Source: a virus (lineage: Duplodnaviria > Heunggongvirae > Uroviricota > Caudoviricetes). From it: a stretch of DNA of 31,179 bases. Below are positions 10,135 through 30,264 of this stretch, piece by piece. Every line of letters starts with the position of its first letter. Position 1 is the stretch's first letter. The stretch lies in the IMG/VR virus record IMGVR_UViG_2579779052_000007, one strand, 5' to 3'. The notes beneath the pieces are model-generated. The model saw only the letters and a program-made list of their open reading frames with translations. It was not told the DNA's origin and made no database searches. The position numbers and the translations under genes were made by a program.

Positions 10135-10149
10135 CACTTATTTTCCCTG

Positions 10150-10172
10150 GCTCGCTTTTGCGGGCTTTTTTT
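10150..10172 (+). terminator. Rho-independent terminator after the tRNA cluster
   Basis: GCTCGC-TTTT-GCGGGC hairpin followed by T7. Confidence 0.5.
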
Positions 10173-10178
10173 AAATGT

Positions 10179-10880: not shown

Positions 10881-11108
10881 GTGGGCAAAAAAAGCCCGCG
10901 CTGGGAGACGCGGGCGGCAAGGAATAAACAATAAAACGTGAAGTAATATTTCAGCTGGCGAATAATATCCGACAGTAATCACTCTGCGCAATAGCGCGGC
11001 CTTTTTCGTATTGCGGGCTGTTGTCTCTCTTCTGCCATTGTCCTGTAACTTCCGGACTTCAGCCCGCTCCTCATTTTACTCACAATATTATCCCGGCCGG
11101 GAGGATTC

Positions 11109-12962: not shown

Positions 12963-12985
12963 GGAAGAACAGGAGAGCAAAACAG

Positions 12986-15006: not shown

Positions 15007-15009
15007 ATC

Positions 15010-15906
15010 ATGCCTGCCGTTGACCTTTCCCAGTTACCGGAACCCGCCATCATCGCGGAGCCTGACTTTGAGGCAATTCTGGCTGACACAAAGGCCATGA
15101 TGATTGCGTCCTATCCTGTCGAACAGCGTGAAGCCGTCTCCGCCGCGCTGGAGCTGGAATCGGAACCCCTGAACGTTATCGCCCAGACAACAGCGTTTCG
15201 TGAAATGCTGTTACGCCAGCGGGTCAATGAGGGGGCACGCGCCTGCATGTTAAGCCACAGCGCCGGGACAGACCTGGACAACCTCGCGGGCAATATGAAC
15301 ACAAAGCGCCTGACCATCACTCCGGCAACGGATACCACCGACGCAGTGATGGAAAGTGACACCTCGCTGAGACTGCGGGCGCAGCGGGCGTACGATGGCC
15401 TGAGTGTTGCTGGCCCGTCAGGTGCATACGAGTATTTTGCCCGCAGCGCCAGCGGTCTGGTGCGTGATGCGCGGGCTATCAGTCCGTCTCCGGCAAATGT
15501 GACGGTTTCCATCCTGTCCACTGAAGGCGACGGCACAGCAACGGAGGCGTTGCTTAATACCGTTCGCGCCGTTCTGAATGCAGAGGATACCCGCCCGGTG
15601 GCCGACCGCCTGACGGTACAGAGCGCCAGAATCGTGACATGGCGGCTGAATGCAAAACTGTACTTTTACCCCGGCCCGGAATCCGAACCTATTCTGGCGG
15701 CGGCTGAATCGTCGTTCAGGAAGTGGCTGGCTGAGCAGGGGCTTATCGGTCAGGACGTGGCGTTGTCCGCCATTGCTGCCGCACTGCATGTGCACGGTGT
15801 GCAACGCGTGGAGATAATCGAACCCACACAGAATATGGCCATCAGCGACATACAGGCGGCGCGCTGTGAGTCGTTCACCATCAGCGAAGGTGGGCGCAAT
15901 GAGTAA
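15010..15906 (+). CDS. J: Baseplate assembly protein, P2 gpJ-like
   Basis: 298 aa; RBS GAGGGAG; P2 size and order. Confidence 0.85.
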   Translation: MPAVDLSQLPEPAIIAEPDFEAILADTKAMMIASYPVEQREAVSAALELESEPLNVIAQTTAFREMLLRQRVNEGARACMLSHSAGTDLDNLAGNMNTKRLTITPATDTTDAVMESDTSLRLRAQRAYDGLSVAGPSGAYEYFARSASGLVRDARAISPSPANVTVSILSTEGDGTATEALLNTVRAVLNAEDTRPVADRLTVQSARIVTWRLNAKLYFYPGPESEPILAAAESSFRKWLAEQGLIGQDVALSAIAAALHVHGVQRVEIIEPTQNMAISDIQAARCESFTISEGGRNE

Positions 15907-16429
15907 TTCACTGTTACCACCATCAGCCAGCAGTTTCATGCGTTGTGCCGAAGCTGTCGGAACGCGCATTACAGACATCCCGGTAGACCTCAACACGCTG
16001 TGGTCGCCGGACACCTGCCCGGTGCACCTGCTGCCTTATCTCGCCTGGGCATTTTCCGTTGACCGCTGGGATCGCAACTGGCCGGAAGAGACAAAACGAC
16101 AGGTGATTCGTGATGCATGGCTGATACACCGACACAAAGGGACCATCAGCGCACTGCGCAGGGCCATTGAGCCGCTGGGATACCTCATTCGCGTGTCTGA
16201 GTGGTGGGAGTTCGGCGGAGAACCGGGAACATTTACCGTTGAAGTCGGCACACTGGACAGTGGCGTGACGGAGGAAATGTATCTGGAAATGGAGCGGTTG
16301 ATTGCTGATGCCCGTCCGGTCAGCCGCCACATGACAGGGCTGAATATCATTCAGGAAATTCCGGGGGATATTTTTGCAGCGGCGGCAACTCATGACGGTG
16401 AAGTTATTACCATTTATCCGGACGATTAA
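15899..16429 (+). CDS. I: Baseplate/tail protein, P2 gpI-like
   Basis: 176 aa, the same length as P2 I; start overlaps the J stop (ATGAGTAA). Confidence 0.8.
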
Positions 16430-16431
16430 GC

Positions 16432-18564
16432 ATGAGTACCACAACACGAAAATTTAAAACCGTTATCACCGATACAGGTGCAAAAAAATTAGCTCAGGCA
16501 GCCGCGCCAGATGGTAAGCCTGTCCGCCTGACTCATATGGCCGTGGGCGACGGTGGCGGCGCGTTGCCCACACCAGACAGTAAGCAGACCCGTCTGGTGC
16601 ATGAGGTGTGGCGACACACTGTTAATCGCGTCATCCTGGACGCAACACATCAGAACCGCATTATTGCGGAGCTGGTTATTCCTCCAGAAACGGGCGGATT
16701 CTGGATCCGGGAAATTGGTGTGTTTGATGAGCACGGCGATTTAATCGCGGTGGGCAATACTGCCGAAAGTTACAAGCCAGCCGTTGCCGAAGGGTCCGGA
16801 CGTGCACAAACATTTCGCACCATTCTGACCGTATCCAGCACTGCCACTGTGGCGCTTACCGTGGATAACACCATGGTGATGGCCACAGTGGATTACGTGG
16901 ATAACAAACTGAAAGAGCATGAACAGTCACGATGTCACCCGGATGCCTCGCTGACCGCAAAAGGCTTTGTTCAACTCAGTAGCGCCACTAACAGCGATTC
17001 TGAAACGCTGGCTGCAACGCCGAAAGCGGTTAAGGTCGCGTATGATCTTGCTAACGGAAAATATACAGCGCAGGATGCCACAACAGCGCGAAAAGGCCTT
17101 GTCCAGCTTAGTAGTGCAACCAACAGTACATCTGAAACGCTGGCGGCAACATCAAATGCAGTAAAAGCTGCCTATGACAATGCTGAAAAACGTCTGCAGA
17201 AAGCTAAGAATGGTGAGGATATCTCTGATAAAGACACCTTTACGAAAAATATCGGTGCCTGCCGTGCATATAGTGCAGAGCTGAATATTGGTGGAGATAG
17301 TGAAGCATGGACAACTGCGCAGTTGATTTTTTGGCTAGAGAGTCAGGGGGCATTTAACCATCCTTACTGGATGTGCAAAGGCTCATGGGCTTATGCAAAT
17401 AATAAGGTCATTACAGATACAGGTTGCGGAAGTATTTGTCTTGCAGGTGCTGTTGTGGAAGTTATTGGCACCCGCGGCGCAATGACCATACGCATTACCA
17501 CACCGAGTACATCCAGCGGTGAAGGCATCCCTAATGCTCAATTTACTTATATTAATCATGGTGATGCTTATGCTCCTGGCTGGCGAAGGGACTATAACTC
17601 CAGGAATAAGCCAACAGCATCAGAGATCGGGGCGTTACCGTCAGATGGGACAGCAGTATCGTCAGTTAATCTGGCTTCAAAAGGTCGGCTGACCGCCCTG
17701 ACAGATAATATGCAGGGGGCCACAGGTCTGGAGTTATACGAGGCGTATAACAACGGATATCCAACAACGTATGGAAATATCATTCACCTGAAAGGGATGA
17801 CAGCCGTTGGCGAAGGCGAATTACTCATCGGCTGGAGTGGTATAAGCGGTGCTCATGCTCCGGCATTTATTCGTTCACGACGGGATACGACCGACGCAAA
17901 CTGGTCGCCGTGGGCGCAGCTTTACACCTCGGCTCATCCTCCTGAAGAGTTTTATCCAGTCGGTGCACCGATTCCGTGGCCATCAGATACCGTTCCGTCT
18001 GGTTATGCCCTGATGCAGGGGCAGACTTTTGACAAATCTGCATACCCGAAACTTGCAGTCGCTTATCCGTCAGGCGTTATTCCTGATATGCGTGGCTGGA
18101 CGATTAAGGGCAAGCCCGGCAGTGGTCGTGCCGTATTGTCTCAGGAACAGGACGGCATTAAATCGCACACCCACAGCGCCAGCGCATCCAGTACGGATTT
18201 GGGGACGAAAACCACATCGTCGTTTGATTACGGTACTAAAACGACCAGTTCATTTGATTACGGCACAAAAACTACGAATAGCGCTGGAAATCATTCACAC
18301 AATATACCTGTTGGTCACACTGGCGCGGGGAATGGTGTATCAGCCGGTTATAACGCTGCGTTAGGTACTGGTACCACGTCGAGCGCAGGCGAGCATGCTC
18401 ACAATGTATATATCGGTGCCCATAACCACACTATCGGCATTGGTGCTCATGCCCATTCTGTCATTATTGGTCCCCACGGACACACCATCACCGTTAACGC
18501 TACGGGTAACGAAGAAAACACCGTAAAAAACATCGCATTTAACTATATTGTGAGGCTTGCATAA
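16432..18564 (+). CDS. H: Tail fibre protein, P2 gpH-like
   Basis: 710 aa; conserved gpH-type N-terminus; repeat-rich, histidine-rich C-terminal receptor-binding region. Confidence 0.8.
18201..18282 (+). repeat. Tandem 30-nt coding repeats within the tail fibre gene ([10 protein letters not shown], about 2.7 copies)
   Basis: GGGGACGAAAACCACATCGTCGTTTGATTAC / GGTACTAAAACGACCAGTTCATTTGATTAC / GGCACAAAAACTACGAATAGC. Confidence 0.55.
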
Positions 18565-19142
18565 TGACATTCAGAATGAGTGAACACTCACGGACCATAA
18601 AAATTTATAATCTACTGACCGGAACCAATGAGTTTATTGGTGAAGGTGATGCATACATTCCACCTCATACAGGTCTGCCTGCAAACAGTACCGATATTGC
18701 CCCGCCAGATATTCCGGCTGGCTTCGTGGCCGTTTTCAACAGTGATGAGGCATCGTGGCATCTCGTTGAAGACCATCGGGGTAAAACGGTTTATGACGTG
18801 GCATCAGGGGACTCGTTATTTATTTCTGAACTCGGTCCATTACCGGAAAATGTTACCTGGTTGTCGCCGTATGGAGAGTATCAGAAGTGGAACGGCACAT
18901 CCTGGGTGAAAGATGCAGAAGCAGAAAAACTGTTTCGGATAAGGGAGGCGGAAGAAACAAAAAACAGCCTGATGCAGGTAGCCAGCGAGCATATTGCGCC
19001 ACTTCAGGATGCCGTAGATTTGGATATTGCAACGGAGGAAGAGGCATCGTTACTGGCTGCATGGAAGACATACCGGGTATTGTTGAATCGTGTTAATACA
19101 GCGGTAGCAGCGGATGTTGAGTGGCCAGTCGCCCCACAATAA
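18564..19142 (+). CDS. G: Tail fibre assembly protein, P2 gpG-like
   Basis: 192 aa; start overlaps the H stop (ATAATG); position immediately after the fibre gene. Confidence 0.8.
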
Positions 19143-19185
19143 AGAGAAAAAGCCATCGATTGAAATATAGATGGCTTTATGTACT

Positions 19186-19758
19186 CTATTTATACAATAC
19201 AACACCGCTCTTTTTAGTTATATATGTGCAGTTCGATGGTATATCTTTATTTATAAAAGACATTGCACCTATTTTTACATTATCCCCAATTTTACGTGAT
19301 AATCCAATGATGCAACAATTAGCTCCGATATCAACGTTACTACCAATTTTTACTCTTGAACCAGGCATGTCACCATCTATCTGTCCAATGGTAGTATTCT
19401 GTCGTAACACCAGATTTTCACCAGCATCAACAGCAAAATGAACAACAATTCCAGCATGATGGGGAATTGTTAACCCTTTTCCAATATTTGCGCCCAATCC
19501 AATTTCACAACCAAATTTGTTAATTATTTTACTGTTTAACTTTTTGGCTGCTTTCTTATGTAATTTATTACCATTAATATACATTTCGTTAGCCAACCGC
19601 CACCAGAAAAGGAAATTCCGGTTACGCTGTTTTTTCTCTCTTAAAAGCCTCCAGATATCCATACGTTTCCGCCGAATTACTTCATATTTCCAGAAGTTTT
19701 TTAAATTAGTAGAGTCCCCAAATAAAACAAAGTGAATTGCCATTAAGTAAGACAGCAC
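19186..19758 (-). CDS. Hexapeptide-repeat (left-handed beta-helix) acetyltransferase moron
   Basis: AT-rich gene on the opposite strand; repeated G.N..IG hexapeptide pattern; GTG start at 19758 with AAGGAG RBS preferred over the upstream track ATG. Confidence 0.7.
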   Translation of the reverse strand: MLSYLMAIHFVLFGDSTNLKNFWKYEVIRRKRMDIWRLLREKKQRNRNFLFWWRLANEMYINGNKLHKKAAKKLNSKIINKFGCEIGLGANIGKGLTIPHHAGIVVHFAVDAGENLVLRQNTTIGQIDGDMPGSRVKIGSNVDIGANCCIIGLSRKIGDNVKIGAMSFINKDIPSNCTYITKKSGVVLYK

Positions 19759-19914
19759 GATAATCTCCTTAATTATTATTTCAGACCACACATATTATAA
19801 GGTTAAGAGATTATAAAATCCTGTTGTTTGTTATTCAAAAACAATTTTCTGAGAAGGACATACAACAGCAAGTCGCCAGTCACCTTCATCAGGAAATTGG
19901 CGACATACGTTAAA

Positions 19915-20409
19915 TCAGAGCAGCCCCTTAACTGAGCTGGTCGCGCTATTAAGGGATGATGTCACCTTATCTTTGAAGCCGGACAACATATCGCTGAACG
20001 ATGAGGATTGCAGGCGCTCCCGCAAATCCTCATCACAGCGTTCAAGAGTCAGTGAAAATTCTATCTTTTTCGCCTTACCGTAGCGATCAAACTCGGAGCG
20101 GGTCGTATTCGTTTCGGTCAGGACATACATGCCGTAAATCTGCCCGACGCCATCAATCAGAGGCCAGGGCCGTCCTGTATACGCCTGCGTGGTCAGCAGA
20201 GACAGCGACACTTCGCCACCTGTAATTTCAGGATAAAGCACACCAGAAAGAACGATGCGATCATCACCTGCACCGATATACTGCCAGCTTGCTGAACGGT
20301 TAACGCGTTCATTTTTCACATGCCGCCAGCTTTTGTTTTGCTGTAACTGCTGATGCGGCAGCGTGCGCAGCTCAAAAACAAACATGCCATAGATCATCAT
20401 CATGGCCAT
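19915..20409 (-). CDS. U: Tail protein, P2 gpU-like
   Basis: 164 aa; immediately downstream of the tape-measure gene on the minus strand. Confidence 0.75.
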   Translation of the reverse strand: MAMMMIYGMFVFELRTLPHQQLQQNKSWRHVKNERVNRSASWQYIGAGDDRIVLSGVLYPEITGGEVSLSLLTTQAYTGRPWPLIDGVGQIYGMYVLTETNTTRSEFDRYGKAKKIEFSLTLERCDEDLRERLQSSSFSDMLSGFKDKVTSSLNSATSSVKGLL

Positions 20410-20415
20410 GACTCC

Positions 20416-23259
20416 TCAATCTTTATCGTAAAAACTGCCACGCCCGGCACGGGCGCGCCGTTCCATTTCTGCCCTGACCATTTCACCGACCAGTTTCGCC
20501 AGTTCGCGGGGATTCTGCGTAACAACGTTATGCAGATGAACATGAATTTCACCGCCAAATCTGGAGACAGCAGGCTCCCGATTACGGGAAGCTGCAGGAA
20601 CTGATGCCACTGGCGATCGTATGGCCTCCGCCACCGGGCGGGAGCTGGCCGCAACAACAGGGACCAGCGCCGGAGGCAGCGGAGCCGGGACTACGGGTGT
20701 GATATTAATTGCGGGGGCAGGCTTACTGACCTGCGCAATCTTCCGCTCCTGCCACTCCCCACGAACAGCAAGTGCGCGGGGCAGGTTCTTAAAGACAATA
20801 TCGCCAGGGCCAATGCGTTTTTTCGTCTCATCAACCAGCTTACCTGTGTTATCAGCAATTTTGCTGAGTCTGCGTAGCGTCCCGGTATTGCTGTCTGTGA
20901 GCGGTTTGTTGTCTTTGGGTTTATCACCTCCGGTGCCATTGCCATTTTCCACAGGCTTCGGCGGATTGATTTTCGCCAGGTCCCCCTGAAGTAAGGCAAC
21001 CTTATCCTGAAGAATGGCCGCACGCTGTGCGTCTTCGATTTTCTTGCGCGCCCTTTCCGCTTCATCCGGAAGGACGCCAAGTTTTTCAAGTATCCACGCC
21101 AGCGTATCCAGTAGCATTTTTGCAGGTGTCAGAACAAGTTGTAACGCACCGCCAAGAACGTTACCGAATATCTCGCCAGCACTGGTACATTTATCCAGCG
21201 TTTCCTTGCTGGACTCCATCGGTGACAGCAGCGATTTAAACCAGTTAAACACCTGGCTGATCCCGCTTCCGATTGCGTCAAAAACAGGGCCAAACCGTTC
21301 AAAGGTTTCACGCAACGGGTTCAGCCTTTCCATAATCCCGCTGAACACCCCGGCAAAAAATGCCCTGATGGGATCCCAGTATTTCCAGATAAGGACGGCA
21401 GCTCCGGCAAGCGCAGCCACGATAAGACCAACCGGACTGAACAGCGCCCCGATAGCGCCTCCCAGTAAAGAAACGGAACCCGTCACCATTCCCCATAGTG
21501 CTGGCAGGACCCTGACAGCATTCATTGATCCGGTCAGGAGAGAAAAACCAAGACGCAGTTTTGCCAGCGGACCAGCAAGCACACCAATAGCCAGCGACAA
21601 CGAGCCAACCGTTGCAGTCATTGCCAGCAACGCACCGCCTGCTATCAGTAGCTGGCGCGTCAGTGCCGGATGGGCCTGCGCCAGCGCCGTCACCCTTGAT
21701 ACCACCCGCGTGAGCCACTGCGTGACAGAACGCAGCGGACCGTCAATCAGATCTGCAATGCGGATGCGCAACCCTTCCCATGCACTGCCGAGTGATTTCA
21801 GATCGCCGTCAAGGTTGTTGGCCATAACCTTTGCTGTGCGTTCAGCCTCACCGCGCGCGCCTTCAAGTTCTTTTCTCAGTTTGGGTAAGGAACCGTCACC
21901 CACTGCATCAACGAGCGCCATAAACGATGTGAAAGCCTCTTCTCCGGCAATGTCCTTAAAGAACGATACCCGGTCAACTTCCCCGTATTTGCGGGTGGCT
22001 TTATAAAGGTCGGCCAGCACATCCTCCATCGGGCGCATTTTACCCCCGGCATCCGAGACGGACACGCCCAGCTCTTTCAGAGCTTCTGCCGCCGCCTTTG
22101 GCGGTGATGCCAGACGAGCCAGGCTGGCACGCATTGCCGTCCCGGCATCACTCCCTCTGATGCCCATATTCGCCAGCACACCAGCCATCGCTGCGGCCTG
22201 CTCCAGCGATATTCCCAGCTTACCCGCCACCGGACCTGCATATTTCATGGTTTCGCCCAGTGCGCGAAGGTCAGTGTTGGTACGGGTAAACGCTGCGGTG
22301 AGTGTGTCACCGACCCGGTCCATCTGGTCAGCAGAAAGGCCGAACTGCGTCAGGATATTTGAGCCAATATCTGCCGTCTCGCCGAGATCCATACCGCCAG
22401 CCGTTGCCATGCTCAGCACTCCGGGAAGCGCAGCCTGAATGGCCTGCGGTGTGAAGCCTGCCATTGCAAGAAATGCCTGCCCACTGGCGGCATCGCCTGC
22501 GGTGAACTGCGTTTCAGAGCCAAGTTTTAACGCCTGCTCACGCAGCGCCTTAAACTGCGGGCTGTTCTGGTCGATTCGCGTCAGCGCCTGAACGCGGGAC
22601 ATCTCTTTGCCGAACCCGATCGCGGGCTGCAAAAAACGCCCGGCAGCATAGCCGCCCGCCGCTGCCGCACCAATTGCCAGCGCACCACCTGTTTTCAGTT
22701 TTCCCGCGGTTTCCTGCGCGCGCGAATACCACTCACGCGCCCGCGTTACACGCGCAAGCGCCTGCCGTTCGCGTTCAAGCTGGTTGTTGTACTGTTCGGT
22801 GCGTCTGATGGCCTGCTGGATGGTGTTATCGCTGCCTGTCAGGGAAATGCCGTGGCGTTTCAGCTCTCCGCCAAGCTCCCGCATTTTCTGAATTTCCCGT
22901 GTGCGCGATTCATTCAGGCGTTCAAGCCGGGTGCTTAACTGCTGCATCAGCTTTTGTTGTTTTTCGCTGAGCACTGTACCCGTGCGTTGTAACTGATTAA
23001 GGGCGTTAAGCTGGCGTCGTGCTTTCACGATACCCGCATCCGCTTTACTGACAGCGTCGCGGGCGCGCTCAAATGAACGAGCCTGACGCTCGAGATTTTT
23101 AATCGCCCCCTGCGTTCGCTGGATGGAGTCACCAAACTGCCCCATCAGGCGGCGGGCGTTTTCGGCAGGCCGGGTCAGCCTGTCAACGGCGCTGAAAGCG
23201 ACCCGGATATCAAGAGTCTTCATTGTCTGCATTCCCGCTGCGAAGTGCCGCCCGCTCAC
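20416..23259 (-). CDS. T: Tail tape measure protein, P2 gpT-like
   Basis: Long alpha-helical, Gly/Ala-rich protein; true start probably at one of the internal ATGs at 23232 or 23223. Confidence 0.8.
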   Translation of the reverse strand: MSGRHFAAGMQTMKTLDIRVAFSAVDRLTRPAENARRLMGQFGDSIQRTQGAIKNLERQARSFERARDAVSKADAGIVKARRQLNALNQLQRTGTVLSEKQQKLMQQLSTRLERLNESRTREIQKMRELGGELKRHGISLTGSDNTIQQAIRRTEQYNNQLERERQALARVTRAREWYSRAQETAGKLKTGGALAIGAAAAGGYAAGRFLQPAIGFGKEMSRVQALTRIDQNSPQFKALREQALKLGSETQFTAGDAASGQAFLAMAGFTPQAIQAALPGVLSMATAGGMDLGETADIGSNILTQFGLSADQMDRVGDTLTAAFTRTNTDLRALGETMKYAGPVAGKLGISLEQAAAMAGVLANMGIRGSDAGTAMRASLARLASPPKAAAEALKELGVSVSDAGGKMRPMEDVLADLYKATRKYGEVDRVSFFKDIAGEEAFTSFMALVDAVGDGSLPKLRKELEGARGEAERTAKVMANNLDGDLKSLGSAWEGLRIRIADLIDGPLRSVTQWLTRVVSRVTALAQAHPALTRQLLIAGGALLAMTATVGSLSLAIGVLAGPLAKLRLGFSLLTGSMNAVRVLPALWGMVTGSVSLLGGAIGALFSPVGLIVAALAGAAVLIWKYWDPIRAFFAGVFSGIMERLNPLRETFERFGPVFDAIGSGISQVFNWFKSLLSPMESSKETLDKCTSAGEIFGNVLGGALQLVLTPAKMLLDTLAWILEKLGVLPDEAERARKKIEDAQRAAILQDKVALLQGDLAKINPPKPVENGNGTGGDKPKDNKPLTDSNTGTLRRLSKIADNTGKLVDETKKRIGPGDIVFKNLPRALAVRGEWQERKIAQVSKPAPAINITPVVPAPLPPALVPVVAASSRPVAEAIRSPVASVPAASRNREPAVSRFGGEIHVHLHNVVTQNPRELAKLVGEMVRAEMERRARAGRGSFYDKD

Positions 23260-23424
23260 GCCAGCTAACCACTTCGCCGGGCGTCATCATGAAGATTTCG
23301 GCGGGCGACCAGTTAAAAATAACGGCAATATCTGCCACAAAGTCTTCTATGTGCTCAAAGCACACAACCGTGATCAGGCTTCCGTCGCCTGTTCGTTCTT
23401 CCCGCCAGAGTCCGCACCGCTCAA
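23210..23424 (-). CDS. E': E' extension reached by programmed -1 frameshift (gives the E+E' fusion)
   Basis: The -1 frame opens directly after the minus-strand heptamer and continues ERCGLWREERTGDG...WSPAEIFMMTPGEVVSWRERAAL to a stop at 23210-23212. Confidence 0.6.
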
Positions 23425-23739
23425 AAAATTTACGGCAACCACACATAACTGAATAAAGTCACGGGATGCCATTTTTTTGATCGTCACTTCATCCAGTCGC
23501 GGTGATGTCACGCGTGACAGCAACGTAAACATGGATTCCGCTTTCAGATTCAGCACATCAGACAGCGACAAATCTCGCAGAGATCCAGCCTGCTCAATAG
23601 CCCCGGTGATCTCCACATACGTGATTTTTTCGCCGCCTCGCTCAATTGGTTGGGTAAGTTTTACACCACGCTCACTGGTTTCTTTCACAGTGTCAGCAAC
23701 TACCGTGTTTTCGGTATCGATGTTTTTCGTCTCTTTCAT
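23374..23739 (-). CDS. E: Tail assembly chaperone, P2 gpE-like
   Basis: 121-aa ORF between the tube and tape-measure genes; contains the T TTT TTG slippery heptamer near its 3' end. Confidence 0.7.
   Translation of the reverse strand: MKETKNIDTENTVVADTVKETSERGVKLTQPIERGGEKITYVEITGAIEQAGSLRDLSLSDVLNLKAESMFTLLSRVTSPRLDEVTIKKMASRDFIQLCVVAVNFLSGADSGGKNEQATEA
23422..23428 (-). other. Slippery heptamer T TTT TTG for the E/E' -1 frameshift
   Basis: Plus-strand CAAAAAA at 23422-23428; in the E frame the minus strand reads AAT TTT TTG. Confidence 0.6.
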
Positions 23740-23793
23740 CAGGAAACTCCTTTCAGTCAGAGGCGACGCACTGCGCCGCCTGCATATTACTTA

Positions 23794-24306
23794 TCAGCCA
23801 AGCCCGAGCGCGGAACGGATGCGATCGGGCACAATGTCCTTGCCGTCCTTCCGGTAAATGAAGTTCAGCAGGTCAATCTCCCACAACGGGCGATCGTTAA
23901 CACTCAGCTTGTAGTAGGTGTTTTTAATGGCGTAAGTGTGTGATGTGGCTTCGCCCTGTTTGGCTTCCCCCATATCAATTTCCGTCACACGTCCGCGCAT
24001 TTCGACTTCATACAGGTCGCTTTCTGCATCGGTGTAATATTCACCCGCAAAACGCAGCAGCGTGCCGTCAATCGTGCCGCCATACTTAAGGAACAGCTCA
24101 CGAACTGCGCCCCCCATGACAAAGCTCGCATCAAGCGCGGAGTCGTCCAGACCGAGATCAATACTTACCGCACCCATCATGCCACCACCCCGGTAGCTGT
24201 CGGTTTTGCGCGTCAGCTTAGGCAGAGTGACGGACGTCACCTTACCCACTTCGTTTTCACCATCCACAAACAGCGTAAAAAAGCGAAGATGTTTTGGTAC
24301 AGCCAT
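23794..24306 (-). CDS. FII: Tail tube protein, P2 gpFII-like
   Basis: 170 aa; directly follows the sheath gene with overlapping start and stop. Confidence 0.85.
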   Translation of the reverse strand: MAVPKHLRFFTLFVDGENEVGKVTSVTLPKLTRKTDSYRGGGMMGAVSIDLGLDDSALDASFVMGGAVRELFLKYGGTIDGTLLRFAGEYYTDAESDLYEVEMRGRVTEIDMGEAKQGEATSHTYAIKNTYYKLSVNDRPLWEIDLLNFIYRKDGKDIVPDRIRSALGLG

Positions 24307-25490
24307 CAGGCACCTCCCAGCACCGCAAATGCGGGTTCAAAGTATTCATCAGTAAACGTCTGGTAAAGCTCCATGTCTTCCAGTGGCGGAACGGGCGTAT
24401 ATTTGTAGCGAATACGCACACGCCCCTGACGTAAATCCGTGGTGCTGTTATCCACCACGTCATACCAGCACTCCGCGCCAATCAGTTTCCCGGCAGTAAC
24501 CAGCGAATCCAGTTTTGCCCTGATGGCACTGATAACATCCTTCACGTTCGCAGGCGTCAGTGGACTGTCGATGGTTTCAAACTGCGCTTCCGCAATTGAA
24601 TCAGCCAGCACCTGTGCGGTTCGGGTATACACCTCAAAGATGTAGGCGTTCGTTTCCGGTGTGCGGTTGCCCCAGAAGCGGAACCCGTTGCGACGAATAA
24701 TGGTCGTGATTTCTTTGTTGTTGAGGCTGTTGGCATCACTGTCTTCGGCCTGCAACGACCAGAAAACATGCCTGGACATCCCCAGCACATTTTTAACAGG
24801 AACGTTGGACAGCGATTTGTGCCAGCCCTGCTCATGGTCAATGTACGCACGAAGGCCGCACGCATAGGCAGGCGCGGGGAACGTTTCGTTTTTGCCACTT
24901 TTCGGGTTGTAGGCGATGAAGTCCGGCCATAAGAGCATCACCTCACGTTCGTTGAATTTCTGGCGGTAGGTAATTGCCTCAGCCATCGTGTTACAGTCAT
25001 GACATGAGGCATACACAAACGCGCGCAGTTTACCCGCAATCACGCACAGGGATTTTGTCACCGCCTCCGTGTCCAGCTCCGGCGCGGCCAGAATACGCGG
25101 ACGGTATCCGATGCTTTCATCCTGCTCTGCAACAAGCAGCGCATACATCCCCGTATAGCTGCCGTCAGATTCAGAACCACCGATAACCAGTTGATCCTGC
25201 GTCTTACCGCCTTCTTCTTTGTGTTCAGCCACGCGAACGACGATCACTTTTGTGCTCACCTGGTCTGCAATAGCCTTAAGCGCACGATAAAGCGTCCCCG
25301 TAGTCCCGCATTTTCCCAGCACGTCATTGACGCGGGTCAGCAGTGTGGGCTTGTTCAGCGGGAACAGCTCCGCGTCCGCATCATCCGCCGTTGCCACGAT
25401 ACCGATAACACTGGAATCAACATCATTAATCGCTGTTACCAGGTCGGTACTTTCCGTAACACGGGCACCATGAAAACGAGTTTCACTCAT
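24306..25490 (-). CDS. FI: Contractile tail sheath protein, P2 gpFI-like
   Basis: 394 aa (P2 FI is about 396); conserved sheath-like C-terminus. Confidence 0.85.
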   Translation of the reverse strand: MSETRFHGARVTESTDLVTAINDVDSSVIGIVATADDADAELFPLNKPTLLTRVNDVLGKCGTTGTLYRALKAIADQVSTKVIVVRVAEHKEEGGKTQDQLVIGGSESDGSYTGMYALLVAEQDESIGYRPRILAAPELDTEAVTKSLCVIAGKLRAFVYASCHDCNTMAEAITYRQKFNEREVMLLWPDFIAYNPKSGKNETFPAPAYACGLRAYIDHEQGWHKSLSNVPVKNVLGMSRHVFWSLQAEDSDANSLNNKEITTIIRRNGFRFWGNRTPETNAYIFEVYTRTAQVLADSIAEAQFETIDSPLTPANVKDVISAIRAKLDSLVTAGKLIGAECWYDVVDNSTTDLRQGRVRIRYKYTPVPPLEDMELYQTFTDEYFEPAFAVLGGA

Positions 25491-25647
25491 AGCTTCAGCC
25501 CCTTGTATCCGTTAAATGATTCGGCAACAATCATCACCCACCACGCGCGTAATCTCACCCCTGCGCCGTTCTCCCGCCACGGCGACAACAAAAAGCAGTA
25601 ACCCCCTATGCACGCACATGCGACCATGCCGCACAGGGAGGGAACAG

Positions 25648-26748
25648 ATGACCGATACCACCATGCAATTGCTCAGTCAGAGCACAGACCCCGTGAAAAT
25701 GCCGGATTTTGATATTCTCGCGGAGGGGGAAACACTGTCCGGCGTGGCAGAGCGCCTGATGAGCCTGTCACTGACCGACAACCGGGGATTTGAAGCGGAC
25801 CTGCTCACCATCACGCTGGATGATGCGGATGGTCAGTTGCAGCTACCGCCACGGGGCGCGCGCCTGACGGTTCTCATTGGCTGGAAAGGAGAACCGCTGA
25901 CAGAAAAAGGCACTTACATTGTTGATGAAATCGCTCACGAAGGACCGCCGGACAGGCTGACTGTTTCAGCCAGAAGCGCAGATTTTCGGGATGAATTTAA
26001 CGTTAAACGTGAGGTGTCCTGGCATGATGTGACCGTTGAGCGCGTGGTATCCGCCATCGCTCATCGGTACGGTCTGAAACCACAAATCAGCGAAATGCTG
26101 ATGGATATTGAAATCGACCACGCCGACCAGACCGAAGAAAGCGACATGTCCTTCCTTACGCGCATGGCGGAAATGCTGGGCGCAATCACTACGGTAAAAA
26201 GCAGTAATCTGTTATTCATCATGCCAGGCGGTGGCGTGAACGCACAGGGCCAGCCGTTGCCATCGTTCGCCATCACGCGCAGCAGTGGCGATCGCCATCA
26301 GTTCCGCATTGCTGACCGCGAAGCGTATACGGGGGTACGTGCTTACTGGCTTGATCTTAATTACGGGAAAAAGAAAAAAGTCAGCGTGAAACGCCGCAAA
26401 CCGAAAAAGGAGAAAAGCAGCAGCCGTGAAGGTGACTATATGGAAGGTGCGGAAGGCAACGTGTTTGTGTTACGCAAGACTTATCAGAACGAGCAGGCAG
26501 CAAGACGTGCAGCGGCGGCAAAGTGGCAGCAGCTACAACGCGGAGCCGCATCATTCTCCATCACGCTGGCGCGTGGACGCGCAGAACTCTATCCCGAAAT
26601 GCATGGCACGGTGACAGGCTTCAAAAGTGACATCGATAATCAGGACTGGATTATTGCAAAAGCCGAGCACACCATTGATAACAGCGGCTTTACCACACAG
26701 CTTGAGCTTGAAGCAAAAATCCCGGAATGGATAGCAGAAACAGAATGA
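25648..26748 (+). CDS. D: Tail protein, P2 gpD-like
   Basis: GGGAGGG RBS before the ATG at 25648 (the track ORF extends to 25516); about 366 aa; lies upstream of ogr. Confidence 0.75.
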   Translation: MTDTTMQLLSQSTDPVKMPDFDILAEGETLSGVAERLMSLSLTDNRGFEADLLTITLDDADGQLQLPPRGARLTVLIGWKGEPLTEKGTYIVDEIAHEGPPDRLTVSARSADFRDEFNVKREVSWHDVTVERVVSAIAHRYGLKPQISEMLMDIEIDHADQTEESDMSFLTRMAEMLGAITTVKSSNLLFIMPGGGVNAQGQPLPSFAITRSSGDRHQFRIADREAYTGVRAYWLDLNYGKKKKVSVKRRKPKKEKSSSREGDYMEGAEGNVFVLRKTYQNEQAARRAAAAKWQQLQRGAASFSITLARGRAELYPEMHGTVTGFKSDIDNQDWIIAKAEHTIDNSGFTTQLELEAKIPEWIAETE

Positions 26749-27162
26749 GCAAATTAGATGTATTGACTCAAACCAGAACTGACACACTCACAGCACAGTG
26801 CCAGACCCAATCTGGCAGCCCGCTTTGTGCCTAGAGCAGGTGTTGCTTATGTAACAGTTAATCCACGGATAGTGGTCATGAATGCTGGTTGAAGTTGTAT
26901 TGCCATGAGTGGTCAATTAGGGACTCACTTATTATCGCGTGCTCACCATTGATGGGTAAGATCATGCATTTCGGCTACTGTACTTCGCGAATCCTCCGCA
27001 CACAGGCAACACCTGATTTAAGAACAGAGGGAGATGATGACGCAAGGAAGATTTATTATCGTGCATGTGGCAGATGATCTTTTAGCTGCCGGAGTGATAA
27101 ATTACACCTATTTTCGATAAGTGTTTTTGTTATAGAACATTAATTTCGTGGGAAACAATAAA

Positions 27163-28287
27163 GTGAAATTAGGAAGAAATGATAAGTGCTGGTGTAATTC
27201 AGGACTTAAGTATAAAAAGTGCCATCTTGGTCGAGATCGTGAAACTCCGGTATCCAAAGCCGAGGCACTGAAATTTTCAAAGTCTCTCTCGCAGAGAAAG
27301 GCATGTTATGCGCCAGCATCCATGCACGAAGATTGTGATAAACGCATCGTTCAGGCGCATACGATATCTAAGAGCAGTAGCCTTAAGGCGATCGCCGACT
27401 CCAGCAATCACGTCATGGGGGTGATAATGAACTTAGCAAGCCTGATGAGAAACAACGGAAAATGGCTTCCCGAGAAGATCGGTATCAATCAGGCATCCAC
27501 TTTTACAGGATTTTGTGCAGTTCATGACAGAATCTTATTTTCATGCCTAGAGAACGAAAAATTTACAGGCACGGACGAGCAGTGCTTTGCCTTAATGTTT
27601 CGTTCATTGTCTAAAGAAATTTATGCCAAAGAAGGGGGAGTGCTATCTTCTGATTTTGCTAAAAATGCCGATAAAGGAAAGCTACAAGTTGAACAGTATT
27701 ATATTCAGAAATTAATCGACCAGCACCAAAGTGGCTTAAATGCAGCAATAATTGAATTAAATAATCTTAAAACTAGCCTCGACCGCATCCTACTTAGCAG
27801 GCAATTTTCAGAAATTGAAAGTGTTATCTTCACTTTTGCAGAGCCTTTACCAATTGTAGTTTCGTCAATTCTTTCACCGGAGAGGGATTTCGATGGGACC
27901 AAAATTCAGGATTTGAGCGATCTTACAGTGTCGGCGGAACAAGTATGTTTCAATGCTTTTTCCTGCGGAGGTAAGGGATATGTAGTGTTCAGTTGGCTGA
28001 GAACTTCAACAATTATCAGACGTTTTATACGGACACTAATTAAGATCCCAGCTAACAGGATGTTCAATACCCTTCTGTATTTTTTCTTCACAAAGGCCGA
28101 AAATACATATTCATCCCCTGAGTGGTGGGACAGGCTCAGTGATAAACAGCGAGAGAATATCGGCAACATGATTATGTCAGGGGTTGAATTTTTTGGCATA
28201 CCTACATCACAGGTTGATCATTCCGTTGATTATAACGCCGCTGCACTTGAAGAGATAACATGCAGCAACAACGAAATTTGCAGCTGA
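27163..28287 (+). CDS. SEC-C-motif protein of unknown function (AT-rich moron between D and ogr)
   Basis: N-terminal KLGRNDKCWCNSGLKYKKCH resembles the SecA C-terminal zinc motif; start must be a GTG (27163, or 27148 as in the track) because the first in-frame ATG lies after the motif. Confidence 0.5.
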   Translation: MKLGRNDKCWCNSGLKYKKCHLGRDRETPVSKAEALKFSKSLSQRKACYAPASMHEDCDKRIVQAHTISKSSSLKAIADSSNHVMGVIMNLASLMRNNGKWLPEKIGINQASTFTGFCAVHDRILFSCLENEKFTGTDEQCFALMFRSLSKEIYAKEGGVLSSDFAKNADKGKLQVEQYYIQKLIDQHQSGLNAAIIELNNLKTSLDRILLSRQFSEIESVIFTFAEPLPIVVSSILSPERDFDGTKIQDLSDLTVSAEQVCFNAFSCGGKGYVVFSWLRTSTIIRRFIRTLIKIPANRMFNTLLYFFFTKAENTYSSPEWWDRLSDKQRENIGNMIMSGVEFFGIPTSQVDHSVDYNAAALEEITCSNNEICS

Positions 28288-28576
28288 ATGTTTACATGCT
28301 GTTAGAAAAAGCGGGCTGAACAATCATTTCGGGATTGTAACAGATAAGATGGCACTGCCCGCTTGCTTCCCGATATGCACCTCAGCCAATAAACTTATGT
28401 AAGCAACCGATTTCCATTTATGCGGAGGTTATCAAAGTTGTTGGAGTTGCGAACTTCCGCTCTTCGCACAAAGCGTACCGCTAGGTTTGATTGTATTCTG
28501 GCTGCGCAAACTGTCAGTTGGAGTCTGAGCTATTACAACTTAGAATAGCGGCAGCACCACGTTAAGGGAGGTCGCT

Positions 28577-28837
28577 ATGTTCCGTTGTCCGCTTTGTGGC
28601 GCATCTGCCCGAATCCGCACCAGTCGTCCGGAAAACGATTCAAACACTGTGCGGCAAAAGTATTACCAGTGTAACAACCTGGAATGCGGCGTATGCTTCT
28701 CAACACTGGAAGCTTTCCATAAATTCACATCAAAACACGCCTCCGGCGTTCACTCTTCGGAAGGTATCCCGTGGCATGAGCTGCCAGCTTCACACAGGGG
28801 AAACAATCAGATGAGTTTGCCTTTACCTCAGAATTAA
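28577..28837 (+). CDS. ogr: Ogr/Delta-family zinc-finger late transcription activator
   Basis: MFRCPLCGASARIRTSR...YYQCNNLECG: four-Cys zinc finger and overall similarity to P2 Ogr; AAGGGAGG RBS. Confidence 0.8.
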   Translation: MFRCPLCGASARIRTSRPENDSNTVRQKYYQCNNLECGVCFSTLEAFHKFTSKHASGVHSSEGIPWHELPASHRGNNQMSLPLPQN

Positions 28838-29026
28838 CAGGCAGAATTGCCGGAGTAACAAAAAAACGATAGATTACCCGCGGGTGCCTTTCGGCTGATG
28901 GTCGGAGGAATACCCGAAGGCCGGATGTGGAAAGGCCCCGGAAAACATTTCTGTTTAACCGAGGCCCTAACATATCTACCTTAAGCAAGTGATAGGTTAG
29001 CGCCTCTCCAACAAAGGAGCAAGCGC

Positions 29027-29167
29027 TATGTCGCAAAAATCGCTTACAGCCATCACGTTCTGCGTGACGGTAATCCTCATCATCTGGATGCTACACGGTT
29101 CGCTGTGTGAAATACGGATGAGCTTCTGGGGAGCGGAGTTTGCGGCGTTCTTACAGTGTAAGCAGTA
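29027..29167 (+). CDS. Hok-family type I toxin (HokA-like); below the ORF-track size cutoff
   Basis: 46-aa translation MSQKSLTAITFCVTVILIIWMLHGSLCEIRMSFWGAEFAAFLQCKQ has a single transmembrane helix and the SLCE...AAFL signature; AGGAG RBS 8 nt upstream. Confidence 0.6.
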
Positions 29168-29256
29168 AGGAAACCGCGACGGGGGAGCAATCCCCCGTCA
29201 ATCGGTTGCTAAGGTTGGCTGAAGTGGCACCCTATCTCACAGACATGAACAACAAA

Positions 29257-29288
29257 CCCGCAGCGTAAGAACTGCGGGTTTTCTTTTT
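29257..29288 (+). terminator. Rho-independent terminator downstream of the hokA-like gene, possibly bidirectional
   Basis: CCCGCAG-loop-CTGCGGG hairpin followed by TTTTCTTTTT; an A-rich run precedes it. Confidence 0.5.
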
Positions 29289-29356
29289 GGAACAATCACT
29301 AGCTAGTGTACCGTTAACGGCACATAATGCTCGCACAACAAACCTGTTAAAAGAGA

Positions 29357-29638
29357 TTACTCAGCATTCTCCTGCTTCCATTGCCGGATCATTTCATCGG
29401 TAACATCACCCTCATAACATACCACGTCATACCCTCCATTACGGCTATATGCACTGCGTCCACCACATCTACTACCATTCCTTGCATGATTATAAGGACA
29501 CGCACAATTGCCTGGATAAGATTCAATGGATTCTTTAATTATTTCTTTTTTGATCTGAGCATCAGACTTTCCTGTTGCTGCATATCCACTAAAAGATACT
29601 AAACAAAGGCAGATTGCCATTAATAAACCACATCGCAT
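29357..29638 (-). CDS. Small Cys-containing protein with predicted signal peptide, hypothetical
   Basis: AT-rich ORF; from the internal ATG at 29638 the product begins MRCGLLMAICLCLVSFSGYAA (signal-peptide-like); weak RBS. Confidence 0.3.
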   Translation of the reverse strand: MRCGLLMAICLCLVSFSGYAATGKSDAQIKKEIIKESIESYPGNCACPYNHARNGSRCGGRSAYSRNGGYDVVCYEGDVTDEMIRQWKQENAE

Positions 29639-30110
29639 ACCGATACACTCTATTACTAACCAATCATAGCCCACATCATAAAATCGAGATGAGGAGTACA
29701 ATACCTTTAACAAGAAGGTGTCATAACGATAATATGTCGTGCAATTCATCAAAAAAAAGATCTATATCAAAGAGATAGAAGTCTTATCAGCGCTTCAGAC
29801 ATCGGCATTCGAGGCAGCAGAAAAACAGTAAATCTGACGAATTTGCCTTTTCCCAAGATGTTGTCAGATTAAAAAGATAGATTAGCGCAGGTACCTGTTG
29901 GTGGATTGCAGGAGGAAAAATGAAGTCGAGTGAAAAAATCCCAGAAAAATTTTTGTTTAACAGAGGTCCTGGTTCACTATGCGAAATACGGAGGAGCTGC
30001 AGAAGAATTCTGCTTCATCCTTAGAGTTTAAACAGCACGTGCACTACCATTGTTTCTGCATATCGCCACACCATCGCCACTCTACCGCCATTGCACAAAA
30101 TACAAATAAC

Positions 30111-30134
30111 AAAAAACCCCCCCGAAGGTGGTTT
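30111..30134 (-). terminator. Probable terminator of the glyW-cysT-leuZ tRNA operon
   Basis: On the minus strand a C/G hairpin (CCACCTTCGGGGGGG) is followed by a T-run, immediately downstream of the leuZ 3' end. Confidence 0.4.
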
Positions 30135-30177
30135 CACGACACTGCTTATTGCTTTGATTTTATTCTTATCTTTCCCA

Positions 30178-30264
30178 TGGTACCCGGAGCGGGACTTGAA
30201 CCCGCACAGCGCGAACGCCGAGGGATTTTAAATCCCTTGTGTCTACCGATTCCACCATCCGGGC
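30178..30264 (-). tRNA. leuZ: tRNA-Leu (anticodon UAA)
   Basis: 87-nt class II tRNA; reverse complement GCCCGGATGGTGGAATCGGTAGACACAAGGGATTTAAAATCCC...GGTACCA. Confidence 0.85.

What the first reader, a model, noticed from the sequence alone, without database searches (positions are those of the whole stretch)
28838..29300. Unannotated 46-codon Hok-family gene (HokA-like) at the prophage/chromosome boundary
It falls below the ORF-track size cutoff, but 29027-29167 has a good RBS and encodes a single-helix peptide with the Hok signature (SLCEIR...EFAAFLQCK). The upstream leader (about 28890-29026) contains a short ORF and GC-rich hairpins resembling mok/fold-back elements, and a terminator follows at 29257-29288. 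It could be a stabilising type I toxin-antitoxin module or prophage cargo next to the tRNA-Leu gene.
Basis: partly seen in the sequence, partly recalled or inferred. Interest (0 to 1): 0.5.

Follow-up and report, generated by a model that had tools for sequence, protein, structure and literature searches.

The report
Known prophage Hok toxin gene cassette
This is a real, intact copy of a well-known small membrane-toxin gene (Hok) with its antisense-RNA antidote, carried as cargo by a P2-like prophage of E. coli; it is already annotated in public genomes, so it is ordinary apart from lacking the usual "mok" leader reading frame.

Summary
It has 46 codons, an AAGGAG site 8 nt upstream, and a Pfam Hok/Gef score of 30.1 bits (cut-off 22). 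The same DNA is 100% identical in many complete E. coli genomes, where PGAP calls it "Hok/Gef family protein" (WP_000078920.1). The peptide is identical in phage P88 gp52, so it is not unannotated in public records.

- its own promoter and a roughly 407-nt mRNA;
- a 5'-3' fold-back and a hairpin that sequesters the ribosome-binding site;
- a conserved antisense (Sok-like) promoter;
- a terminator.

Ten divergent homologues keep the structure through 17 compensatory pairs.

Two parts of the interpretation fail. No mok-like ORF is conserved or reaches hok. The gene also lies about 1 kb inside the prophage: attR is within tRNA-Leu, and the 820 bp between are phage DNA.

HokA is only the nearest named paralogue (43.5% identity, below NCBIfam's HokA cut-off). 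A one-residue variant sits on a 2026 preprint's tested list and is not among the three non-toxic exceptions named.

Verdict: already known, low interest.

The parts
28847..28875 (+). Predicted hok promoter: -35 TTGCCG (28847-28852), 17-nt spacer, -10 TAGATT (28870-28875). It starts 10 nt after the ogr stop codon (28835-28837).
   Evidence: Read. The positions align with the promoters of the K-12 hokA, hokB, hokC and hokE loci and are kept in 9 of 10 homologues. TAGATT is present in 78 of 80 viral contigs. It matches 8 of 12 consensus positions, below the scan tool's threshold, so one search did not flag it.
28882..29288 (+). Predicted full-length hok mRNA of about 407 nt: 146-nt leader, hok ORF, 120-nt 3' UTR.
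   Evidence: The 5' end is inferred from alignment with K-12 hok loci and the Rfam model start. MFE is -175 kcal/mol, z = -7.7. In 10 homologues the consensus structure is 95.1% paired with 17 compensatory pairs, reached by 0 of 500 shuffles.
28882..28897 (+). tac-like 5' element (GGGUGCCUUUCGGCUG), which pairs with the 3' fbi-like element.
   Evidence: Helices 1 and 2: 7 + 7 pairs, 98.6% and 91.2% paired, with 2 compensatory pairs. In S. diarizonae both sides changed.
29216..29232 (+). fbi-like fold-back element (UGGCUGAAGUGGCACCC).
   Evidence: GGCACCC is present in 58 of the 60 viral contigs that extend far enough.
28925..28986 (-). Predicted Sok-like antisense RNA of about 62 nt: a single-stranded 5' tail followed by a GC-rich hairpin and UUUCC. 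The ends are inferred, give or take a few nt.
   Evidence: Aligned with the annotated K-12 sokC, sokB and sokE RNAs. The fold is -22.9 kcal/mol, and an extended 78-nt fold has z = -4.5. The lower stem is 93% paired in 12 distinct sequences but shows no covariation. Three of its 10 pairs are G-U on this strand and would be A-C mismatches on the sense strand.
28994..29022 (-). Predicted sok promoter: -35 TTGCTC (29022->29017, overlapping the hok ribosome-binding site), 17-nt spacer, -10 TAACCT (28999->28994).
   Evidence: This is the layout I recall for R1 (own knowledge, not checked here). TAACCT is invariant in 10 of 10 divergent homologues. Both hexamers are present in 80 of 80 viral contigs.
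28998..29028 (+). Local hairpin that sequesters the hok ribosome-binding site (GGAG 29016-29019 pairs with CUCU 29004-29007) and the A of the start codon.
   Evidence: Helices 8 and 9 (98.3% and 95.0% paired). It persists in the predicted 3'-truncated mRNA.
29028..29168 (+). hok ORF, 46 codons plus TAA. It has an N-terminal hydrophobic helix (about residues 6-22) and hard-coded C27 and C44.
   Evidence: dN/dS is 0.23-0.41 against five homologues. The ORF is intact in 80 of 80 viral contigs. All seven residues reported as >80% conserved in the family are present (M1, C12, T14, L26, C27, E28, E37; compared).
28978..28992 (+). Leader segment, overlapping the predicted Sok 5'-tail target, that pairs long-range with 29202-29215 in the full-length mRNA.
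   Evidence: Helix 7: 12 pairs, 3 of them with compensatory changes (UA->CG x3, GC->AU x2, AU->GC x4).
29178..29199 (+). Conserved hairpin 10 nt after the stop codon; a candidate 3' end of the processed, active mRNA.
   Evidence: Helix 14: 9 pairs, 4 with compensatory changes, 98.9% paired. Also seen.
29254..29288 (+). Intrinsic terminator (10-bp stem plus a T-run). It is bidirectional and shared with the convergent 93-aa gene. It marks the right edge of homology with phages P88 and Chuche.
   Evidence: Sequence immediately after the T-run falls into at least 10 different forms among viral contigs.

Best explanation
This is an intact hok/sok-type type I toxin-antitoxin cassette. It is carried as accessory cargo (a 'moron') just downstream of ogr, in the right arm of a P88-like (Xuanwuvirus, P2-family) prophage integrated into tRNA-Leu (leuZ).

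What the sequence shows:
- The 46-aa product is a Hok/Gef-family single-helix peptide.
- Its mRNA has the family's 5'-3' fold-back and a hairpin that hides the ribosome-binding site and start codon.
- A conserved promoter on the opposite strand should produce a Sok-like antisense RNA of about 60 nt, complementary to leader positions 44-105.

Inferred by analogy with R1 hok/sok and Sp5 hokW-sokW:
- The stable full-length mRNA is inert.
- Slow 3' trimming removes the fold-back and exposes the Sok target.
- While Sok is made, the duplex is destroyed.
- If Sok synthesis stops, Hok is translated and damages the inner membrane.

Unlike R1, this subfamily has no mok reading frame. Sok must therefore act by triggering cleavage or decay, or by a structural effect, rather than by blocking mok translation.

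The biological role is not shown. I favour stabilisation of the prophage (addiction), with help in lysis as the main alternative.
For: Family membership:
- Pfam HOK_GEF 30.1 bits, above the cut-off of 22.
- PHROG 251 'MokW-like host killing', E 2.5e-23.
- Sources name the identical peptide Hok/Gef or HokA.

Context:
- Identical DNA is annotated in complete genomes between ogr and leuZ.
- The peptide is 100% identical to phage P88 gp52.
- Phage Chuche has the order ogr-hok-com/methylase-integrase.

RNA anatomy:
- The Rfam sok model matches the leader at E 2e-9.
- The mRNA fold has z = -7.7 with the 5' end paired to 29216-29232.
- Across 10 homologues, 95.1% of cells are paired, with 17 compensatory pairs against 9.1 in shuffles (0 of 500 reach it) and 1-7 in slid controls.
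- The sok promoter hexamers are invariant.
- The antisense segment aligns with K-12 sokB, sokC and sokE.

Coding selection:
- dN/dS is 0.23-0.41.
- The ORF is intact in 80 of 80 viral contigs.

Toxicity: a preprint's list of tested homologues includes the V15A variant of this peptide (72_1621) and the Stx2a-phage copy (72_1589). Its text names only three other sequences as non-toxic.

Related evidence: hokW-sokW of prophage Sp5, a different paralogue, was shown to be a working type I system (PMC8621323).
Against: - No expression data exist for either RNA. The transcript ends are inferred by alignment only.
- The Rfam score is below the gathering threshold (46.7 against 59).
- No mok frame is present, although in R1 mok translation up to the hok ribosome-binding site is mandatory for Hok synthesis (PMC9841398).
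- In the predicted 3'-truncated mRNA the ribosome-binding-site hairpin stays closed, so how translation is activated is unexplained.
- The Sok hairpin shows conservation but no covariation.
- Some chromosomal hok loci were reported unable to mediate post-segregational killing (preprint introduction).
- Two homologues are visibly decayed: a frameshift in pBone8 and a deletion in an E. albertii plasmid.
Confidence: 0.85

Rival explanations
1. The cassette works as above, but its role is to help phage lysis and release. When the prophage enters lytic growth, Sok is lost or outrun, for example by read-through from ogr, which has no terminator before the hok promoter. Hok then weakens the inner membrane and advances or enhances lysis. 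This is what was reported for hokW-sokW in the Stx2 prophage Sp5.
For: - hokW-sokW deletion halved Sp5 release after mitomycin C (PMC8621323).
- Stx2a phages also carry a 46-aa copy of this very subfamily, 83% identical in DNA.
- The hok promoter starts 10 nt after the ogr stop, with no terminator-like site between them on the + strand.
Against: - The Sp5 experiments concern a different paralogue, the 51-aa HokC/D-like protein.
- P2-family prophages are classically not SOS-inducible (own knowledge).
- Nothing here tests timing or release.
Confidence: 0.25
2. The locus is structurally intact but functionally silent. It would be a hitch-hiking relic that is transcribed yet never yields Hok, because the mok coupling has been lost and the ribosome-binding site stays sequestered.
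For: - No mok is present.
- The ribosome-binding-site hairpin persists in the predicted truncated mRNA.
- Chromosomal hokA, hokB and hokC loci failed to mediate post-segregational killing.
- Decayed copies exist, including a relic 0.7 kb downstream in this same window.
Against: - The peptide is under purifying selection (dN/dS 0.23-0.41).
- The ORF is intact in 80 of 80 viral contigs.
- In the divergent pairs the leader is about as conserved as the coding sequence or more so.
- There are 17 compensatory pairs, including ones in the fold-back and around the start region. These are hard to explain for a dead locus.
- Absence of mok is shared by the whole subfamily rather than being a recent lesion.
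Confidence: 0.12
3. The cassette serves the lysogen as an abortive-infection or superinfection defence. An incoming lytic phage shuts off host transcription, the short-lived Sok decays, and Hok kills the cell before the invader completes its cycle.
For: - R1 hok/sok on a high-copy plasmid reduced T4 plating by 42% and reduced plaque size (cited in PMC8621323).
- P2-family prophages are known carriers of defence cargo at variable loci (own knowledge).
Against: [quoted passage not shown]
- I ran no PADLOC scan and no defence test.
- The R1 effect was modest.
Confidence: 0.15

Closest known systems
Escherichia phage P88 gp52 (YP_009113095.1, 'MokW-like host killing', hok/gef family); same protein as WP_000078920.1 in E. 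coli genomes
   Same: - The peptide is 100% identical.
- DNA is 97.5% identical over window 28537-29288 and 98.0% over the finding's 28838-29288.
- The position is the same, in the ogr-proximal right arm of a P2-family genome just before the att/integrase module.
   Different: The sequence after the terminator T-run differs completely (different att/integrase module). The window's leader has a 1-nt deletion relative to all other homologues.
Hok 'cluster 72' of Escalera-Maurer et al. (bioRxiv 10.1101/2025.08.07.668861), representatives 72_1621 and 72_1589
   Same: 72_1621 differs from the window peptide by one residue (V15A). 72_1589 equals the Stx2a-phage copy. Both are listed among the tested homologues, and the text names only three other sequences as non-toxic. 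The preprint also reports enrichment of hok in prophages.
   Different: The exact V15 peptide is not in the tested list. The preprint did not analyse mok, Sok or mRNA structure for these clusters.
hok/sok (parB) of plasmid R1
   Same: - The promoter, tac/fbi fold-back and leader hairpins are arranged alike.
- The sok promoter has its -35 box overlapping the hok ribosome-binding site.
- The toxin is about 50 aa with a conserved L-C-E core.
   Different: - There is no mok frame, whereas R1 has a 70-codon mok whose translation is required.
- The toxin is 46 rather than 52 aa.
- The Rfam score is below the gathering threshold.
- The fbi element is followed by a separate intrinsic terminator.
HokA of E. 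coli K-12 (b4455)
   Same: It is the nearest named paralogue: 43.5% identity, shared WM..SLCE and AAFL.CK motifs, and both cysteines hard-coded.
   Different: The score is below NCBIfam's HokA equivalog cut-off (35.8 against 89 bits). The published cluster differs (72 against 93). The genomic site differs too: hokA lies next to cspA and is broken by IS150 in K-12.
hokW-sokW of Stx2 prophage Sp5 (PMC8621323)
   Same: It is a prophage-borne hok/sok-type cassette with experimentally shown toxin and antitoxin activity.
   Different: HokW is a 51-aa HokC/D-like protein starting MKQQKAM. The window's own HokW/D-like copy is a separate locus at 5350-5675, which has a mok frame and a full Rfam score.

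Membership tests
Hok/Gef toxin family (Pfam PF01848) | Profile score at or above the curated gathering score | tested here: met
   30.1 bits against 22, E 3.7e-07, residues 7-44 on profile positions 5-42 of 42.
Hok/Gef toxin family (Pfam PF01848) | Peptide of about 45-55 aa with an N-terminal hydrophobic helix and the family's conserved residues (M1, C16, T18, L30, C31, E32, E41 in the published logo) | tested here: met
   46 aa; residues 6-22 are uncharged and hydrophobic. M1, C12, T14, L26, C27, E28 and E37 correspond to all seven positions with a 4-residue offset (sequence; logo).
Hok/Gef toxin family (Pfam PF01848) | Toxic to the cell when expressed | not testable with these tools
   The V15A variant (72_1621) is in a preprint's tested set and is not among its three named non-toxic exceptions. 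The exact peptide has not been tested.
[quoted passage not shown] | 5' tac element pairs with a 3' fbi element in the full-length mRNA | tested here: met
   28882-28897 pairs with 29216-29232 in the MFE fold. In 10 homologues there are 14 pairs, 91-99% paired, 2 of them compensatory.
[quoted passage not shown] | Cis-encoded antisense Sok RNA with its own promoter, complementary to the leader | tested here: inconclusive
   A conserved TTGCTC-17-TAACCT promoter and an alignment with K-12 sokB, sokC and sokE support it. There is no transcript evidence, and the hairpin shows no covariation.
[quoted passage not shown] | mok reading frame that starts in the leader, is translated through the hok ribosome-binding site, and is the direct target of Sok | tested here: not met
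   In the window no ATG/GTG/TTG ORF from the leader ends closer than 28 nt before the hok ATG. Leader ORFs differ in frame, length and presence among 10 homologues, and an in-frame TAG at 28998-29000 closes the hok frame.
[quoted passage not shown] | Rfam RF01794 (sok / hok leader) at or above the gathering score | tested here: not met
   46.7 bits against 59 (E 2e-9) at 28882-29038. The window's other hok locus scores 120.5 bits.
[quoted passage not shown] | Slow 3' processing to an active mRNA; RNase III cleavage of the Sok duplex; a short-lived Sok | not testable with these tools
   There is only a candidate processing stop, the conserved hairpin at 29178-29199.
HokA equivalog (NCBIfam NF007290) | Score at or above the curated cut-off of 89 bits | tested here: not met
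   35.8 bits; 43.5% identity to K-12 HokA.
Accessory cargo of P88-like (Xuanwuvirus) P2-family phages | Located in the phage genome between ogr and the attP/integrase module | tested here: met
   The window has D - YecA-family gene - ogr - hok. Phage P88 has hok followed by the att/integrase module, and Chuche has ogr - hok - cargo - integrase. attL/attR duplication of the leuZ 3' half places the cassette inside the prophage.

The most novel reading that the evidence does not exclude
The 46-aa Hok subfamily (published cluster 72, found in P88-like and Stx2a phages and some plasmids) is a naturally mok-less branch of hok/sok. It would control toxin synthesis without leader-peptide coupling. Sok pairs 27 nt or more upstream of the hok ribosome-binding site. 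It would act through duplex cleavage or decay, or through a structural or standby-site effect resembling tisB/istR-1, rather than by blocking mok translation.
Probability: 0.5. Interest if true: 0.35.

Novelty: already known. Interest (0 to 1): 0.15.

Why it matters
It matters little for discovery. The gene, its family, its presence in prophages and the toxicity of a one-residue variant are already on record.

Two modest points remain.

First, RNA-family pipelines would miss the regulatory RNA of this subfamily, because the Rfam score is below threshold. Type I antitoxins in P2-like prophages are therefore probably under-annotated.

Second, the whole subfamily lacks the mok frame that is mandatory in the R1 paradigm. 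That makes it a convenient natural system for asking how a hok mRNA can be controlled without translational coupling.

Tried and rejected
Rerunning with a 7-sequence alignment worked. The genome scan then gave only 6 loci, and the 80 viral loci were nearly identical, so they added counts but little diversity.
- The promoter scan tool flagged neither the hok nor the sok promoter, since each matches 8 of 12 positions and the threshold is 9. The promoter calls therefore rest on conservation and on alignment with known loci.
- The covariation test on the Sok hairpin was uninformative: conserved, with no double changes.
- I looked for an att core shared with phage P88 downstream of hok and found none beyond 29288. 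The real att duplication came from comparing the attL side of strain SCU-124.
- I considered the 28-aa ORF 28898-28984 as mok, along with ATA/ATC/GTG starts after the conserved GAGG (28961-28964). I rejected all of them because none is conserved and none reaches the hok ribosome-binding site (and a hand reading).
- I considered hokW identity because of the 'MokW-like' label. I rejected it because HokW is a 51-aa HokC/D-like protein.
- A full-text search for reports of mok-less hok loci returned nothing relevant.
- Folding the 3'-truncated mRNA did not reveal how the ribosome-binding site would be freed.

Full report
**Observation**

It runs 29028-29168 on the + strand and encodes 46 codons, MSQKSLTAITFCVTVILIIWMLHGSLCEIRMSFWGAEFAAFLQCKQ. 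AAAGGAG lies at 29013-29019, 8 nt before the ATG.

The family assignment is well supported:
- Pfam's Hok/Gef model scores 30.1 bits against a gathering score of 22.
- PHROG 251, 'MokW-like host killing', matches end to end at E 2.5e-23.
- All seven residues that a recent catalogue reports as conserved in more than 80% of Hok peptides are present, with a 4-residue offset.

The terminator is real: stem 29254-29281 followed by a T-run to 29288.

**Is it unannotated or new?**

No.
- The 463-bp region is 100% identical in many complete E. coli genomes. It has a match in 1549 of 5426 genomes.
- In those genomes PGAP annotates 'Hok/Gef family protein' WP_000078920.1.
- The exact peptide occurs on more than 1000 contigs and is named Hok/Gef or HokA by its sources.
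- It is identical to gp52 of phage P88, a Peduoviridae phage of genus Xuanwuvirus.
- A 2026 preprint catalogues 32,532 hok loci and reports enrichment in prophages.
- Its list of homologues tested for toxicity includes 72_1621, which differs from this peptide by V15A, and 72_1589, the Stx2a-phage copy. The text names only three other sequences as non-toxic.
- That V15A variant is also the second commonest form among 80 viral contigs: 17 against 63 with the exact peptide.

**RNA anatomy**

The locus aligns with the K-12 hokA, hokB, hokC and hokE loci from the -10 box onward.

The predicted promoter is TTGCCG-17-TAGATT (28847-28875), which places the 5' end at G28882. Rfam's sok model (RF01794) describes the sense-strand leader. 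It matches 28882-29038 at E 2e-9, but its 46.7 bits fall below the gathering score of 59.

The 407-nt transcript 28882-29288 folds at -175 kcal/mol (z = -7.7). Its first 15 nt pair with the 29216-29232 segment, which is the classical tac/fbi fold-back.

I aligned ten homologues at 67-99% coding identity. They come from P88, Chuche, an Stx2a phage, four plasmid records, one large replicon filed as a plasmid in PLSDB, and two Salmonella. The consensus structure has 102 pairs:
- 95.1% of cells are paired.
- 17 pairs carry compensatory changes, against 9.1 ± 1.7 in shuffles (0 of 500 reach the observed value) and 1-7 when partners are slid.

The supported helices are:
- the fold-back;
- a long-range helix, 28978-28992 with 29202-29215, that covers part of the predicted Sok target;
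- a local hairpin that pairs GGAG of the ribosome-binding site and the A of the start codon (28998-29007 with 29016-29028);
- a hairpin just after the stop codon (29178-29199; 4 compensatory pairs).

**Antisense RNA**

On the minus strand, TTGCTC (29022->29017) and TAACCT (28999->28994) are 17 nt apart, and the -35 box overlaps the hok ribosome-binding site. This is the layout I recall for R1 (own knowledge, not checked here). TAACCT is invariant in all ten homologues. Both hexamers are present in 80 of 80 viral contigs.

Alignment with the annotated K-12 sokC, sokB and sokE puts the RNA at about 28986 to about 28925, roughly 62 nt. It has a single-stranded 5' tail, a GC-rich hairpin and UUUCC.

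The hairpin is conserved (93% paired) but shows no covariation, so that test says nothing either way. Three of its ten pairs are G-U on the antisense strand and would be A-C mismatches on the sense strand. No transcript evidence is available.

**What does not fit: mok**

In R1, translation of mok up to the hok ribosome-binding site is mandatory, and Sok acts on mok (PMC9841398).

Here no ATG/GTG/TTG ORF that starts in the leader ends closer than 28 nt before the hok ATG. The hok frame itself is closed by TAG at 28998-29000.

It has 28, 31, 6, 24 and 4 codons in different homologues, its ATG is absent in one, and the window itself has a 1-nt deletion inside it.

The same window holds a canonical locus at 5350-5675. 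It has a 70-codon Mok frame, a 51-aa HokD/W-like toxin and a full Rfam score of 120.5 bits. The contrast is therefore internal to this window.

The 46-aa subfamily thus appears to be mok-less as a group. How translation is activated is unclear, because the ribosome-binding-site hairpin stays closed in the predicted truncated mRNA.

**Is it under selection?**

Yes.
- dN/dS is 0.23-0.41 against five homologues.
- In the divergent pairs the untranslated leader is about as conserved as the coding sequence or more so (78-84% against 67-84%).
- The ORF is intact in 80 of 80 viral contigs.
- Two plasmid copies are decayed.

**Context and the 'boundary'**

From about 11288 onward the window is a P2-like prophage. 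Its order is tail genes, D, a 379-aa YecA-family gene, ogr (28577-28837; Pfam Ogr_Delta) and then hok.

Homology with phages P88 and Chuche stops exactly at the terminator T-run (29288). Homology with prophage-free K-12 starts at 30109.

The 820 bp between these points is not chromosomal. It carries a gene of a phage family (phrog_27544) and a decayed second hok locus.

In strain SCU-124 the same prophage is flanked on the integrase side by yecA and a second copy of window 30109-30232, which comprises the 3'ETS and the 3' half of leuZ (97.6% identical). The phage therefore integrates into leuZ and supplies a replacement 3' half. The crossover lies at about 30146-30232, roughly 1 kb beyond hok.

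Among viral contigs, the sequence right after the hok terminator falls into at least ten forms. The cassette therefore sits at a recombination joint, between the conserved late/ogr region and exchangeable att/integrase modules.

**Relation to named Hoks**

HokA is the closest K-12 paralogue (43.5%; the others are 24-30%). The peptide nevertheless fails NCBIfam's HokA equivalog cut-off (35.8 against 89 bits). It also belongs to a different published cluster (72 against 93). Both cysteines are hard-coded, as in HokA.

HokW of prophage Sp5, shown experimentally to be a type I system that aids phage release, is a different, HokC/D-like paralogue. Stx2a phages also carry a copy of the present subfamily, 83% identical in DNA.

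**Verdict**

This is a genuine, intact hok/sok-type type I toxin-antitoxin cassette carried as cargo by a P88-like prophage. It is already annotated and catalogued.

The only mildly unusual feature is the subfamily-wide absence of mok. The biological role (prophage retention, help in lysis or defence) is not determined.

Noticed in passing
window 5350-5675 (+): A second, canonical hok locus sits in the lambdoid part of the window. The Rfam sok model scores 120.5 bits at 5350-5525 (gathering score 59). A 70-aa Mok frame (5463-5675) contains a 51-aa HokD/HokW-like toxin (MKQQKAMLIALIV...). It makes an internal contrast with the mok-less 46-aa locus.
   Followed up: partly
window 29861-30040 (+): A decayed third hok locus lies 0.7 kb downstream of the intact one. 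The promoter (TTGTCA ... TAGATT) and leader are 70-93% alike. A 128-bp deletion then removes the sok promoter, the ribosome-binding site, the start codon and about 23 codons. A frameshifted tail follows (...GSLCEIRRSCRRILLHP*).
   Followed up: yes
window 30109-30232 (attR); L014 9569-9692 (attL in strain SCU-124): The prophage integrates into tRNA-Leu (leuZ) and supplies its own copy of the 3' half of leuZ plus the 3'ETS-leuZ region. This copy differs at 3 positions from the chromosomal copy kept at attL. In K-12, 3'ETS-leuZ is annotated as a small regulatory RNA, so lysogens express a variant of it.
   Followed up: partly
window 27148-28287 (+): A 379-aa 'YecA family / SEC-C domain' gene sits as cargo between gpD and ogr, while the chromosomal gene flanking the other end of the attachment site is yecA itself. 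It has only weak N-terminal SEC-C-like matches in NCBIfam and no PHROG match.
   Followed up: no
window 1-11288 versus 11289-29288; junction inside ORF 11109-12962: The window is a composite. A lambdoid region, with tRNA Met-Arg-Arg at 9885-10134 and two STnc100 copies, joins the P2-like prophage inside a shared SASA/DUF6645 esterase gene. No complete E. coli genome in the collection carries 8000-31179 contiguously (best coverage 86%). This could reflect a recombinant prophage, an inversion between prophages or an assembly artefact.
   Followed up: partly
window 29357-29638 (-): A 93-aa cysteine-rich ORF with a lipoprotein-like signal sequence (annotated as hypothetical protein WP_001303543.1; phrog_27544) converges on hok and shares its bidirectional terminator. 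It persists in O157:H7, where IS1203 and IS30 have replaced ogr and hok.
   Followed up: partly
window 18907-19105, 10209-10399, 10677-10886: Rfam hits above the gathering score: IS009 RNA (192 bits) inside the tail-fibre region, and two copies of STnc100 downstream of the phage tRNAs.
   Followed up: no
L021 (Planococcaceae MAG) and L022 (Vagococcus sp.), 1501-1638: Loci encoding a peptide 100% identical to the window's Hok appear in assemblies labelled as Gram-positive taxa. These are most likely E. coli or phage contamination of those assemblies.
   Followed up: no
L020 (pBone8_2) 491-; L018 (E. albertii pEA5_1) 474-575: Two plasmid copies of this hok subfamily are inactivated, one by a 1-nt frameshift and the other by an internal deletion plus loss of the post-stop hairpin. 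Decay of the cassette does occur.
   Followed up: partly
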